Source: Patescibacteria group bacterium (lineage in GTDB: Bacteria > Patescibacteriota > Minisyncoccia > Moranbacterales > GWC2-37-73). Taken from it: a stretch of 64,000 nucleotides of DNA. A program made the translations under genes and the position numbers. Of the stretch, positions 5,064-52,652 are shown piece after piece. Every line of letters starts with the position of its first letter. Positions within the stretch are counted from its first letter, which is position 1. The stretch covers positions 350 to 64,349 of the forward strand of contig DASVYU010000015.1 in the NCBI GenBank assembly GCA_036391995.1, in the 5' to 3' direction. Under the pieces are notes generated by a model that saw only the letters and a program-made list of their open reading frames with translations, ran no database searches and had not been told where the DNA came from.

Positions 5064-5789
5064 TTATAGCCGTCCGCCATAACTTGCGGCTTCATTGAGG
5101 CATTTTCTGACAGGACCAAAGGATTTCCTATGTATTTCGCATGGGCCAAGCTTCGCCAGGGCATCCATATGCTCCTTGGTGCCATAACCCATATGCTTTT
5201 CCATGCCGTAGCCCGGGTATTTCTTCCCGAATTCCCTCATCATCCTGTCTCGAGTAACTTTAGCCACAATGGAAGCTGCTGCAATGGATTTTGAAAGCCT
5301 GTCTCCCCCGATAACTGCCTGTTGCTCAAAAGAAAAATTGGGAACCTCCTTGTTGCCGTCCACCAAAACAATTGTTTTTGGGGTATTTTGGGAATTTAGG
5401 GGTTTTAATTCTGACAACCTTAACAACTCTTGCACGGCTTTTTTCATGGAAAGAAAGCTGGCCTCCAGAATGTTGATGCGGTCGATTGTCTCATGATCGC
5501 ATAGCCCGATGCCCACATGGAAGTGTTCATGAATGAAATCAAACACTTTTTCCCTTTGCTTTTCACTGAGTTTCTTGGAATCTCTGACAAGATCCCACAT
5601 CTTACTAGCATCGGAGCTCAACTCCGAATCGGAGTTGAGCTCCGATAACAATGCTGAATTTTTAATGACCACTGCGGCCGCCACCACAGGACCGCAAAGC
5701 GGCCCGCGACCGACTTCGTCAGTCCCAATGATCAGATCGTAGCCGTTTTCAGCCAATATTTTTTCCAATTCAAATGTCGCAATTTCCAT
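5064..5789 (-). CDS. rnhB: ribonuclease HII, carrying an in-frame palindromic-element insertion
   Basis: 241 aa. DEVGRGPLCGPVVAAAVV RNase HII motif. Residues LSELNSDSELSSD are encoded by a perfect 35-bp palindrome at 5610-5646. Confidence 0.85.
   Translation of the reverse strand: MEIATFELEKILAENGYDLIIGTDEVGRGPLCGPVVAAAVVIKNSALLSELNSDSELSSDASKMWDLVRDSKKLSEKQREKVFDFIHEHFHVGIGLCDHETIDRINILEASFLSMKKAVQELLRLSELKPLNSQNTPKTIVLVDGNKEVPNFSFEQQAVIGGDRLSKSIAAASIVAKVTRDRMMREFGKKYPGYGMEKHMGYGTKEHMDALAKLGPCEIHRKSFGPVRKCLNEAASYGGRL
5610..5646. repeat. palindromic repeat element copy 1 (atcggagctcaactccga a tcggagttgagctccgat), in-frame inside rnhB
   Basis: Perfect 17-18 bp inverted arms. A second copy of the same family lies at 51630-51666. 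Confidence 0.85.
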
Positions 5790-26900: not shown

Positions 26901-26906
26901 GTTTTG

Positions 26907-26980
26907 TGGGCTTACCAAGATTCGAACTTGGGACCTCGTCATTATCAGTGACGCGCTCTAACCAACTGAGCTATAAGCCC
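26907..26980 (-). tRNA. tRNA-Ile (anticodon GAT), no encoded CCA
   Basis: gggcttatagctcagttggttagagcgcgtcaCTGATAAtgacgaggtcccaagttcgaatcttggtaagcccA. The full cloverleaf folds by hand, with discriminator A. Confidence 0.9.
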
Positions 26981-26998
26981 TTGAATGGGCACTTTTTG

Positions 26999-27071
26999 TG
27001 GACCGGACAGGACTCGAACCCGCTACCTCCTCAGTGCAAATGAGGCGCTCTACCAGGTGAGCTACCGGCCC
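26999..27071 (-). tRNA. tRNA-Ala (anticodon TGC), no encoded CCA
   Basis: gggccggtagctcacctggtagagcgcctcaTTTGCACtgaggaggtagcgggttcgagtcctgtccggtccA. The G3:U70 identity pair is present. Confidence 0.9.
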
Positions 27072-42696: not shown

Positions 42697-42833
42697 TTAC
42701 CCTGTTAAATAAGATTTGAATCTCTTTTTCAGAAAAACAACTTATCAAATTACGTTTTGTTTATTTTAATTTCATTCACTCTGATAAATATCCTTTATTC
42801 AAATCTTAATTTTATTTTTTTAAAAAAATAAAA

Positions 42834-43523
42834 TTATTTAACAGGGTGAAATTTTTCTATTATTTTTTGCGCCTTCTCGAGATCTTCTGGATTGCCTATT
42901 GGAAACCAGCCAGTGGCTTTTTCTACAACAATTTTATGCTTATCCATCATTTTTATCATGGTTTGAGGTAAGCCGTATTCCCCGTTGGGTATTCTAACCA
43001 ATGGATAATTGAAAAAATCCTTGTTCAATTTATACAGGGCAATATTTGCCAGAGCCGGTGCTGGAATATCAGGATTTTCAACAATATCACTGAGATTATT
43101 CTTTTCGTCGAAATATATTACTCCGAATCTTTTCGGCTCTTCAACTTCCAAGCCCAGCACGGCCAGTTTGTGCTGCATGACTCGCTCTATATCTTTCTTC
43201 ATGTAAAGATCATCTCCCATCATCACCAGAAAATCATTGCGAAGAATGTCTTTAGCCAGATGCAATGCCGCACCACTGCCTTCCAGTTTTTCCTGCACGA
43301 CGTAGGAAATTTTCTTGCCCGCATACTCATTGCCAAAATATCTCTGGATTTGATCCCGAAGATATCCAACAACAAGAATAACTTCATCCACTTCTTCAGG
43401 TAGCGTTTCTATCTTATACGCCAAAATGGGTTTTCCTTTTATTTCAAGCATCGGCTTGGGGGTGTCTACAGTGAGCTGCCCCATGCGAGTCCCTCTGCCA
43501 GCCGCCAATATCACGATCTGCAT
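42834..43523 (-). CDS. sugar-phosphate nucleotidyltransferase
   Basis: 229 aa. MQIVILAAGRGTRMG ... PKPMLEI. Confidence 0.75.
   Translation of the reverse strand: MQIVILAAGRGTRMGQLTVDTPKPMLEIKGKPILAYKIETLPEEVDEVILVVGYLRDQIQRYFGNEYAGKKISYVVQEKLEGSGAALHLAKDILRNDFLVMMGDDLYMKKDIERVMQHKLAVLGLEVEEPKRFGVIYFDEKNNLSDIVENPDIPAPALANIALYKLNKDFFNYPLVRIPNGEYGLPQTMIKMMDKHKIVVEKATGWFPIGNPEDLEKAQKIIEKFHPVK

Positions 43524-51407: not shown

Positions 51408-52652
<1,245 letters not shown>

What the first reader, a model, noticed from the sequence alone, without database searches (positions are those of the whole stretch)
5610..5646. Perfect 35-bp palindromic element inserted in-frame in RNase HII (copy 1 of a dispersed family)
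atcggagctcaactccga-a-tcggagttgagctccgat is a perfect hairpin with 17-18 bp arms, sitting inside rnhB. It encodes an extra SELNSDSELSS loop in a surface region of the protein without breaking the frame. A near-identical palindrome is in tgt, 46 kb away. This behaviour, a selfish palindromic repeat tolerated in-frame inside essential ORFs, is known from Rickettsia palindromic elements (RPEs). Here it appears in an unrelated reduced genome. The element is 33 nt (11 codons), and both copies are translated in the same phase, giving the (S/T)E(L/F)NS(D/E)SEL(S/N)S peptide.
Basis: seen in the sequence. Interest (0 to 1): 0.7.

Follow-up and report, generated by a model that had tools for sequence, protein, structure and literature searches.

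The report
In-frame REP-like palindrome in RNase HII
A perfect 37-base palindrome inside the RNase HII gene is one copy of a small hairpin repeat family of Moranbacteria-like (CPR) genomes that survives inside essential genes by being read as an extra 11-13-residue loop, and in related genomes it is tied to a REP-type tyrosine transposase gene that carries the same hairpin inside its own coding sequence.

Summary
Window 5610-5646 is a perfect 18+1+18 palindrome in rnhB. A near-identical one lies at 51630-51666 in tgt. Both are read as (S/T)E(L/F)NS(D/E)SEL(S/N)S.

The conserved 33-nt core is an inverted doublet of a mini-hairpin, CGGAG-CTCAA-CTCCG. Exact-pattern scans of public genomes and metagenomes found it almost only in Candidatus Moraniibacteriota and unnamed bins. 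I counted 53 unique doublets. Of these, 31 lie deep inside long ORFs (AtpA, RecG, LeuRS, MetRS, MurG, RlmN and others), and 29 of the 31 are in the SELNS frame.

The closest RnhB and Tgt orthologues lack the insert. Other lineages carry perfect palindromic variants at the same RnhB loop. The window and L068 cores match at 32 of 33 bases, against about 66% for the rest of the gene.

In related genomes the repeat clusters at a ~215-aa Y1/HUH transposase gene. Its best fold match is the E. coli REP-associated transposase, 4ER8. That gene is flanked by single or double units. In all 11 genes checked on DNA it holds a lineage-specific in-frame palindrome at one fixed site.

My best reading is a REPIN/RAYT-like system whose repeats tolerate translation. 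It behaves like Rickettsia palindromic elements but is not a member of that family. No such transposase gene lies in this window, so the link to this genome is inferred.

The parts
5610..5646 (.). Copy 1: perfect 18+1+18 palindrome. The conserved 33-nt core is 5612-5644, an inverted doublet of the mini-hairpin CGGAG-CTCAA-CTCCG. On the minus strand it is read as SELNSDSELSS(D).
5064..5789 (-). Host gene rnhB (RNase HII, 241 aa). The insert is residues S49-S59, in the loop between strand 35-42 and the DSK motif.
51630..51666 (.). Copy 2: perfect 18+1+18 palindrome (core 51632-51664). Relative to copy 1 it has C/G->T/A and T/A->A/T mirrored changes. It is read as (K)[11 protein letters not shown](V).
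51408..52631 (-). Host gene tgt (tRNA-guanine transglycosylase, 407-aa ORF). The palindrome lies in the loop between 'GRLFVW' and 'INISNEKF'. The loop is 13 residues longer than in the closest orthologue.

Best explanation
The rnhB palindrome is a REPIN-like element, that is, two inverted copies of a 15-18-nt REP-type mini-hairpin (TCGGAG-CTCAA-CTCCGA) joined by one base. It belongs to a low-copy repeat family of Moranbacteria-like CPR genomes.

In related genomes the family is the cognate repeat of a conserved RAYT-like Y1/HUH transposase gene. Single and double units flank that gene, and one palindrome sits in frame inside it.

Inferred by analogy with E. coli TnpA(REP) and IS200/IS605 TnpA: the enzyme recognises the folded hairpin on single-stranded DNA and cuts and rejoins it. 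That would spread copies to new sites without a target duplication.

Shown here: the doublet core is 33 or 36 nt, a whole number of codons. It has no stop codon in two of the three frames on either strand. Both arms encode the same Ser/Glu-rich hexapeptide.

Inferred: copies that land in a permissive surface loop in the S-E-L-N-S frame add a short hydrophilic loop and persist, even in essential genes. Other insertions are purged.

Inferred: perfect palindromy at old, orthologous sites is kept by hairpin-templated (quasipalindrome) correction, by gene conversion, or by re-insertion from active copies.
For: Dispersal and host range
- The inner 21-mer hits 13 genome loci. Eleven are full elements, all in Moraniibacteriota MAGs or unnamed bins, with up to 3 per genome.
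- A metagenome scan gave 54 loci, with 33-nt and 36-nt core variants.

In-frame survival
- Of 53 unique doublets, 31 lie deep in ORFs of at least 150 aa. Of those, 29 are in the SELNS frame and 2 in the other open frame. None is in the frame that carries the TGA stop, which my scoring could not have registered as lying inside an ORF.
- The hosts are real housekeeping genes.

Insertion, not an ancestral loop
- The closest RnhB and Tgt orthologues lack the segment.
- The core is 32/33 identical between the window and L068, while the rest of rnhB is 66% identical and third codon positions are about 0.57 identical.
- L068, L069 and L070 carry three different perfect 33-nt palindromes at the same RnhB site.
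- L070 has a single unit of its own variant elsewhere in the locus.

Link to a RAYT-like gene
- A ~213-aa Pfam Y1_Tnp protein has NCBIfam REP_Tyr_transpos as its only hit, below the curated cut-off.
- It was found in 11 of the scan loci (8 distinct genes).
- Its gene is flanked by, or contains, several units.
- All 9 RAYT-like loci that entered the count have at least 2 element sites, against 4 of 52 other loci (Fisher 4e-8).
- The AlphaFold model (pLDDT 89) matches 4ER8, the E. coli REP-associated transposase bound to a REP hairpin, best (E 6.6e-7). IS608 and ISDra2 TnpA come next.
- All 11 RAYT-like genes checked on DNA hold a lineage-specific (near-)perfect palindrome at one site. Cognate copies sit right after the stop codon in L071 and L073.
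- Many of the 120 top homologues show palindrome-type peptides at that site.
- RnhB with the doublet (L066) and the RAYT-like gene with the same doublet (L025) lie on one contig, Ga0265593_1000136.
Against: - No RAYT-like gene lies in the 64-kb window (tblastn and profile search), so the link to this genome is by inference.
- The classical REP hallmarks, a GTAG or CGTC tetranucleotide at the hairpin foot and an extragenic location, are absent (PMC3733652).
- Copy number looks low: 2 per 64 kb here and 2-3 exact cores per reference genome.
- No empty site close enough to define the exact inserted bases, a target sequence or a duplication was found. No consistent target duplication is seen.
- Transposition of REPs by RAYTs has not been shown in vivo in any organism.
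- Clustering at the transposase gene could partly reflect that gene's tolerance to insertions.
- The database scans required exact arms. The perfection of most catalogued copies is therefore partly an ascertainment effect. Only the RnhB and RAYT-like copies, which were found through proteins, are unbiased.
Confidence: 0.7

Rival explanations
1. A selfish palindromic miniature element, like a Rickettsia palindromic element or a MITE, moved by some other unknown enzyme or by recombination. On this view the clustering at the Y1 transposase gene is incidental and reflects a non-essential, insertion-tolerant gene.
For: - The element is a bare palindrome that could be read as two abutting 16-nt terminal inverted repeats.
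- 15 of 29 canonical copies have identical dinucleotides on both sides.
- A second, clearly MITE-like family with 12-nt terminal repeats (ACCCTGTTAAAT) also sits in frame in tgt.
- No RAYT-like gene is in the window.
Against: - 11-12 of the 15 matching flanks are AT/AT. That dinucleotide is self-complementary and looks like part of the element. No duplication of 3 nt or more is seen.
- Every RAYT-like gene checked carries its own lineage-specific palindrome at one fixed site, often with cognate copies at its ends. Simple tolerance to insertions does not predict this.
- Single hairpin units also exist.
Confidence: 0.15
2. The hairpins are functional sites kept by selection. Examples would be binding sites of a domesticated RAYT-like protein, or RNA or DNA structures that affect replication, transcription, mRNA stability or translation pausing. 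They would not be merely tolerated parasites.
For: - Perfect palindromy persists at the orthologous RnhB site in lineages whose rnhB genes are only 66-68% identical. Differences between variants are compensatory.
- The internal palindrome is conserved in position across the RAYT-like family.
- Single units next to A- and T-runs resemble terminators at gene ends.
Against: - Presence among orthologues is patchy. About 10 of 120 RnhB sequences and 2 of 120 Tgt sequences carry it, and the nearest relatives lack it.
- The hosts are functionally unrelated.
- The same loops hold unrelated insert families in other lineages. That fits permissive sites better than a site-specific function.
- Quasipalindrome correction or gene conversion can keep palindromes perfect without selection (established mutational mechanism; not tested here).
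Confidence: 0.1
3. The segment is an ancestral or convergently evolved low-complexity Ser/Glu loop of the proteins, and the DNA palindromy is incidental.
For: The peptide is of low complexity, and the RnhB and Tgt loops vary greatly in length among orthologues.
Against: - The same 33-nt DNA occurs in unrelated genes and outside long ORFs.
- The palindrome is perfect at the DNA level, and 0 of 100 shuffles match the pattern.
- The core is 97% identical where flanking codons are saturated.
- Most orthologues lack it.
Confidence: 0.01

Closest known systems
REP/BIME/REPIN repeats with their RAYT (TnpA-REP) Y1/HUH transposases (E. coli, Pseudomonas; PDB 4ER8; PMC3333891, PMC3116915, PMC5581495)
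   Same: - Short hairpin units occur singly and as inverted doublets that fold into one long hairpin.
- A ~200-aa Y1/HUH gene sits among housekeeping genes and is flanked by its cognate repeats (the 'REPtron' layout).
- The best fold match of the CPR protein is 4ER8.
- Hairpin variants are lineage-specific and track the transposase gene.
   Different: - There is no GTAG or CGTC tag at the hairpin foot.
- The units are smaller (15-18 nt) and the doublet spacer is 1-8 nt.
- Copy number is low.
- More than half of the copies are intragenic and translated.
- The transposase gene carries a palindrome in frame at a fixed internal site. I found no report of this for RAYTs.
- The protein scores below NCBIfam's RAYT cut-off (28 against 80 bits).
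Rickettsia palindromic elements (RPEs)
   Same: Palindromic repeats are tolerated in frame inside essential genes of a reduced genome and add a surface peptide segment.
   Different: - From my own knowledge, not measured here: RPEs are about 100-150 bp.
- PMC3733652 reports that RPEs carry a CGTC tag.
- From my own knowledge: they are confined to Rickettsia and have no known transposase partner.
- The present element is 33-39 nt. I noticed no resemblance to RPEs but made no sequence comparison. It does have a candidate transposase.
Intragenic GTAG/CGTC REPs described by Di Nocera et al. 2013 (PMC3733652)
   Same: REP-type hairpins are found wholly inside annotated ORFs of known proteins.
   Different: Those are the minority of families that are otherwise extragenic and tagged. 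Here the repeat is built to be translated: a whole number of codons, stop-free, with a 29:2 frame bias. The host is a CPR lineage that paper does not list among its hosts.
IS200/IS605-derived miniature elements (PATEs) and other bacterial MITEs
   Same: They are non-autonomous, rich in hairpins and presumably moved in trans. IS200/IS605 elements leave no target duplication.
   Different: PATEs keep distinct left and right subterminal hairpins and are about 100-300 bp. Classical MITEs have terminal inverted repeats and a target duplication. Neither layout is seen here.

Membership tests
REP/REPIN-RAYT system | Short (about 20-40 nt) palindromic repeat unit that folds into a stem-loop and is present in several dispersed copies | tested here: met
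   The unit TCGGAG-CTCAA-CTCCGA occurs singly and in doublets across 60+ loci. Folding z-scores are -7.6 to -10.4.
REP/REPIN-RAYT system | Units arranged as inverted doublets that form one hairpin (REPIN/BIME) | tested here: met
   Both window copies and 53 unique catalogued copies are inverted doublets with a 1-8-nt spacer.
REP/REPIN-RAYT system | A RAYT (Y1/HUH, IS200-like) gene flanked by the cognate repeats | tested here: met
   Met in related genomes. L057, L038, L019, L030, L001, L059, L071 and L073 have units within about 100 nt of the gene ends. Pfam Y1_Tnp hit. Best fold hit is 4ER8. In the window's own genome this could not be tested: no such gene lies in the 64 kb.
REP/REPIN-RAYT system | Conserved GTAG (or CGTC) tetranucleotide at one foot of the hairpin | tested here: not met
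   The flank consensus is (A)AT-core-AT(T). No GTAG or CGTC is present. The feature is as defined in PMC3733652 and PMC6006769.
REP/REPIN-RAYT system | Predominantly extragenic location | tested here: not met
   31 of 53 unique doublets lie deep inside ORFs of at least 150 aa with Pfam-supported hosts.
REP/REPIN-RAYT system | RAYT is single-copy, vertically inherited and set among housekeeping genes | tested here: inconclusive
   L001 and L072 both have the gene close to gap and an amidohydrolase gene. In L073 it sits between rpsJ and rplC, and in L071 next to the atp operon. Copy number per genome could not be counted.
REP/REPIN-RAYT system | Protein reaches the curated RAYT family threshold | tested here: not met
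   NCBIfam NF047646 REP_Tyr_transpos is the only hit but scores 28 bits against a cut-off of 80. JGI names several homologues 'REP element-mobilizing transposase RayT'.
Rickettsia palindromic elements (RPE) | Palindromic repeat inserted in frame in functional genes | tested here: met
Rickettsia palindromic elements (RPE) | Length about 100-150 bp, CGTC-tagged, sequence related to the RPE families | tested here: not met
   The element is 33-39 nt and has no CGTC tag. The RPE length is recalled from my own knowledge. The CGTC tag is reported in PMC3733652. No sequence comparison with RPEs was made.
MITE (DDE-transposase derived) | Terminal inverted repeats plus a fixed-length target-site duplication | tested here: not met
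   Direct flank identity is 15/29 at 2 nt, mostly the self-complementary AT. It is 2/29 at 3 nt and 0/29 at 4 nt.

The most novel reading that the evidence does not exclude
CPR bacteria harbour a distinct clade of RAYT-like transposases whose gene always carries its own cognate hairpin in frame at one fixed site. This could act as a built-in master copy or as an autoregulatory site that locks the repeat and the enzyme together. The repeats would be shaped for translation, so that they colonise and remodel surface loops of essential proteins across the streamlined CPR proteome. The rnhB and tgt palindromes would be two such events. The many other palindrome-derived inserts in the same loops would mean this is a general source of protein length variation in CPR.
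Probability: 0.4. Interest if true: 0.8.

Novelty: new variant of a known kind. Interest (0 to 1): 0.62.

Why it matters
In-frame selfish palindromes have mostly been treated as a peculiarity of Rickettsia, with no known mobilising enzyme. Here the same behaviour appears in an unrelated, ultra-small-genome phylum. The element is about a third of the size, and a concrete candidate enzyme exists: a RAYT-like HUH transposase. That makes the mechanism testable in vitro.

The finding also suggests that part of the well-known length variation of CPR proteins comes from translated hairpin repeats.

It raises a new question about REPIN-RAYT biology: why does the transposase gene itself keep a lineage-specific palindrome in its coding sequence?

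In practice, these inserts can mislead alignment, phylogeny and annotation of CPR proteins. They may also serve as strain markers.

Tried and rejected
- Viral contigs scan with a gapped pattern: no hits.
- L004 (Bacteroidetes) and L010 (Natronoflexus) match only the inner 21-mer and lack the outer arms. I treated them as chance or unrelated hairpins.
- A third 12-mer match at window 50736 is the ABC-ATPase 'NLDSESAQ' motif, not an element.
- Fuzzy search for single arms in the window, with up to 4 mismatches, found no further copies.
- Sequence and profile searches of the RAYT-like protein against PDB sequences found nothing. Only the fold search worked.
- I looked for a target-site duplication and for GTAG/CGTC tags. 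Neither was found.
- I considered a resemblance of GGAGTTCAACTCC to a tRNA T-arm. The stem and loop register does not fit, so I dropped it.
- I considered DNA-uptake-sequence, CRISPR-repeat and restriction-site readings. There are no arrays, no abundant single half-sites and only 2 copies per 64 kb, so I dropped these.
- Exact insert boundaries could not be defined. The nearest insert-free orthologues are only 72-75% identical and the loops themselves vary.
- Literature searches found no paper describing these elements or RAYTs in CPR. This is not proof of absence, because many journals are not in the library.

Full report
**Observation**

Window 5610-5646 is a perfect palindrome with 18-nt arms and one base between them: ATCGGAGCTCAACTCCGA-A-TCGGAGTTGAGCTCCGAT. 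It lies in the minus-strand ORF 5064-5789. That ORF is RNase HII (Pfam E 3.5e-35). The palindrome is read as S49-S59, SELNSDSELSS.

A second perfect 18+1+18 palindrome lies at 51630-51666. It is inside the minus-strand ORF 51408-52631, which is Tgt (Pfam E 2e-145). It is read in the same phase as [11 protein letters not shown].

It matched none of 100 dinucleotide-preserving shuffles. These are the only dispersed repeated 16-mers in the window.

The two copies differ at two mirrored position pairs, so both stay perfect, and at the central base. The perfect palindrome is 37 nt, not 35. The shared core is 33 nt.

Each arm is itself a mini-hairpin, CGGAG-CTCAA-CTCCG. The element is therefore an inverted doublet of an 18-nt unit, and each unit encodes the same hexapeptide, SEL(N/S)SD. 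One frame per strand contains a TGA. The other two are open and read SELNS... and GAQLR...

**Source organism**

The RnhB and Tgt proteins are identical to NCBI entries from a 'MAG TPA: Patescibacteria group bacterium' contig of 65,457 nt. Their nearest named relatives are Candidatus Moranbacteria/Moraniibacteriota.

**Dispersal**

A scan of one genome per species for the inner 21-mer gave 13 loci. Eleven are full elements. All eleven are in Moraniibacteriota MAGs or unnamed bins, with up to three per genome. The other two, from Bacteroidetes and Natronoflexus, lack the outer arms.

A metagenome scan that allowed a variable centre gave 54 loci. It showed three kinds of variant:
- the canonical 33-nt core, with centre GAWTC;
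- a 36-nt core, with centre GAAGCTTC;
- versions with real 5-7-nt loops.

Single units flanked by A- and T-runs also occur between genes. No copy was found in viral contigs.

**In-frame survival**

I found 53 unique doublets. Of these, 31 lie well inside ORFs of at least 150 aa. Among those 31, 29 are in the SELNS frame and 2 in the GAQLR frame. A copy whose stop-containing frame coincided with a gene's reading frame would break the ORF, so it could not score as lying inside a long ORF. The absence of such copies is therefore partly built into the count. Some sites are orthologous, so the number of independent sites is nearer 20. The frame bias remains strong.

The hosts are genuine genes:
- ATP synthase alpha
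- RecG
- LeuRS (two different sites)
- MetRS
- MurG
- a Mur ligase
- RlmN
- an RsmI-like methylase
- a HypF-like carbamoyltransferase
- a methyltransferase
- large surface proteins

The two GAQLR cases are in a Wzy-type membrane protein and an asparagine synthase. Both belong to a longer composite repeat.

**Insertion rather than ancestral loop**

In RnhB, the closest orthologues (P0002-P0004, 72-75% identity) have short, unrelated loops. Most of the 120 orthologues read ...NFEIPADKQKQFD....

In Tgt, the closest orthologue (P0122, 74%) reads WKNKENL-KSDFYETINI. The window reads [30 protein letters not shown], which is 13 residues longer.

Against solved structures:
- RnhB residues 45-66 align to 3 residues of T. 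maritima RNase HII.
- Tgt residues 316-341 align to 3 residues of a solved TGT.

An AlphaFold model of RnhB has mean pLDDT 87.8. It puts the insert at the end of a short helix (46-50) followed by coil (51-58). The 10-residue block 51-60 has the lowest internal confidence, 68.

**The same RnhB site in other lineages**

About ten RnhB orthologues carry ELNSESELSS, ELSSESELSS, ELSSGVPELSS or EFDSESESNS at the same place. I fetched DNA for three:

| Locus | 33-nt core |
|---|---|
| L068 | CGGAGCTCAACTCCGAATCGGAGTTGAGCTCCG |
| L069 | CGGAGCTGAGCTCCGAATCGGAGCTCAGCTCCG |
| L070 | CGGAGTTCGACTCCGAATCGGAGTCGAACTCCG |

All three are perfect 33-nt palindromes that differ by mirrored changes. The rnhB genes of the window and these three loci are only 66-68% identical. 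The exception is the L068/L069 pair, at 81%. Third codon positions are 0.50-0.57 identical for the distant pairs. Yet the window and L068 cores match at 32 of 33 bases.

L070 also holds a single unit of its own variant elsewhere in the locus. The element is thus kept, or renewed, at the DNA level in a genome-specific way.

It points to one of three processes: repeated insertion into a permissive loop, gene conversion among copies, or hairpin-templated correction.

**Link to a transposase**

One host ORF in L001 reads ...CYCLNPNHYHFILQ...LFQGRYKS...LSAYVNLN... It is a Pfam Y1_Tnp protein. Its only NCBIfam hit is the REP-associated tyrosine transposase model, below the cut-off at 28 against 80 bits.

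Homologues of 49-67% identity turned up in eleven scan loci. These are eight distinct genes once the duplicate loci L029 and L041 are set aside. Each gene has units at its ends and one doublet inside.

All nine RAYT-like loci that entered the count have two or more element sites. Only four of 52 other loci do (Fisher 4e-8). The de-duplication was imperfect, so the p-value is somewhat inflated.

The family is large and centred on CPR. There are 4787 database proteins at E ≤ 1e-5. They are named from Moran-, Parcu- and Pacebacteria, and JGI labels some 'REP element-mobilizing transposase RayT'.

An AlphaFold model (pLDDT 89) matches 4ER8 best, with E 6.6e-7. 4ER8 is the E. coli REP-associated transposase bound to a REP hairpin. 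IS608 and ISDra2 TnpA follow.

Many of the 120 top homologues show a peptide of palindrome type at the same site, between the 'FL....EFN' helix and the HUH strand. Examples are SELNSESELSS, TELNSEASELSS, EFDSDSESNS, ELSSxxxELSS, KLSFGYPKLSF, GSLASxxEAKLP and GSKSPIGLLEPK.

On DNA, all eleven genes checked have a perfect or near-perfect, lineage-specific palindrome there. In L071 and L073 a cognate copy follows the stop codon directly.

RnhB with the doublet (L066) and a RAYT-like gene with the same doublet (L025) are on one contig.

**What is missing**

- The window has no RAYT-like gene.
- There is no GTAG or CGTC tag and no consistent target duplication. The flank consensus is AT-core-AT.
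- Copy number is low.
- Exact insert boundaries are undefined.
- RAYT-driven transposition is inferred from E. coli biochemistry. It has not been shown here.

**Comparison with known systems**

The system works like REP/REPIN-RAYT: hairpin units, inverted doublets, and a Y1 gene flanked by its cognate repeats. It fails two defining features of the classical families, the tag and the extragenic location. The protein also falls below the curated RAYT threshold. I therefore file it as a new variant, not as a member.

It behaves like Rickettsia palindromic elements in being translated. It differs in size and tag, and no sequence comparison with them was made.

Intragenic REPs have been reported before (PMC3733652). 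I found no report of these CPR elements or of a palindrome fixed inside RAYT genes. The searchable library is incomplete.

**Verdict**

The best mechanism is a translated REPIN-like doublet spread by a CPR RAYT-like transposase. My confidence is about 0.7 for the transposase link and above 0.95 for 'dispersed palindromic element inserted in frame'.

Noticed in passing
window 52237-52300 (in tgt), window 42699-42847 (intergenic), L068 19421-19547: A second, unrelated repeat family with 12-nt terminal inverted repeats (ACCCTGTTAAAT / ATTTAACAGGGT). The tgt copy is a clean 60-nt, 20-codon in-frame insert ([20 protein letters not shown]). It is absent from nearly all of the 70 Tgt orthologues displayed. 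Related inserts sit at the same site in P0125, P0131, P0145 and P0157. A ~149-nt copy with the same ends lies between two genes at 42699-42847.
   Followed up: partly
L001, L019, L025, L030, L036, L038, L057, L059, L071, L072, L073 (RAYT-like genes); proteins P0241-P0360: The CPR RAYT-like transposase gene carries a lineage-specific, in-frame, (near-)perfect palindrome of 33-52 nt at one fixed site just before the HUH motif. Some genes have a second one near the C-terminus. This held in all 11 genes checked on DNA. I found no description of this in the papers searched.
   Followed up: partly
RnhB orthologues P0034, P0046, P0055, P0088, P0119; Tgt orthologues P0172, P0184 and many others: The same RnhB and Tgt loops hold other insert families in other Moranbacteria. 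Examples are 'CHPELDSGS...QVRNDK/VQDDK' and AT-rich 'F(Q/P)ISNFQ...' runs of up to about 75 residues. From the peptides, at least the first looks palindrome-derived. This was not checked on DNA.
   Followed up: no
L016, L017, L021, L026, L028, L032, L050, L061, L064, L065, L067 (sample Ga0180732): The 36-nt core is nested in a longer, asymmetric repeat of about 76 nt: AATTAAGCTTCGCGCATTTTCG-core-CGAAAATGCTTATATTGAAATT. Most copies are outside long ORFs. In L065 (a Wzy-type protein) and L067 (asparagine synthase) the repeat is translated in the other open frame as ...FGAQLRSFGVELRKCAK...
   Followed up: partly
L073 2779-3468; L071 8402-9052; L001 7207-7848 and L072 10001-10672: The RAYT-like gene sits among core genes. 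In L073 it is between rpsJ and rplC in the ribosomal protein operon. In L071 it is next to the atp operon. In L001 and L072 it is close to gap and an amidohydrolase gene, which suggests vertical inheritance.
   Followed up: no
RnhB orthologue P0098 (no DNA available): P0098 has only 'PELSSE' at the insert site. This is the result expected if 18 nt were deleted between the direct repeats inside a doublet, leaving a single unit. It suggests that doublets and single units interconvert.
   Followed up: no
window 26906-27071: tRNA-Ile(GAT) and tRNA-Ala(TGC) lie side by side, the classical pair of the 16S-23S spacer. Rfam found no rRNA anywhere in the 64-kb window.
   Followed up: no
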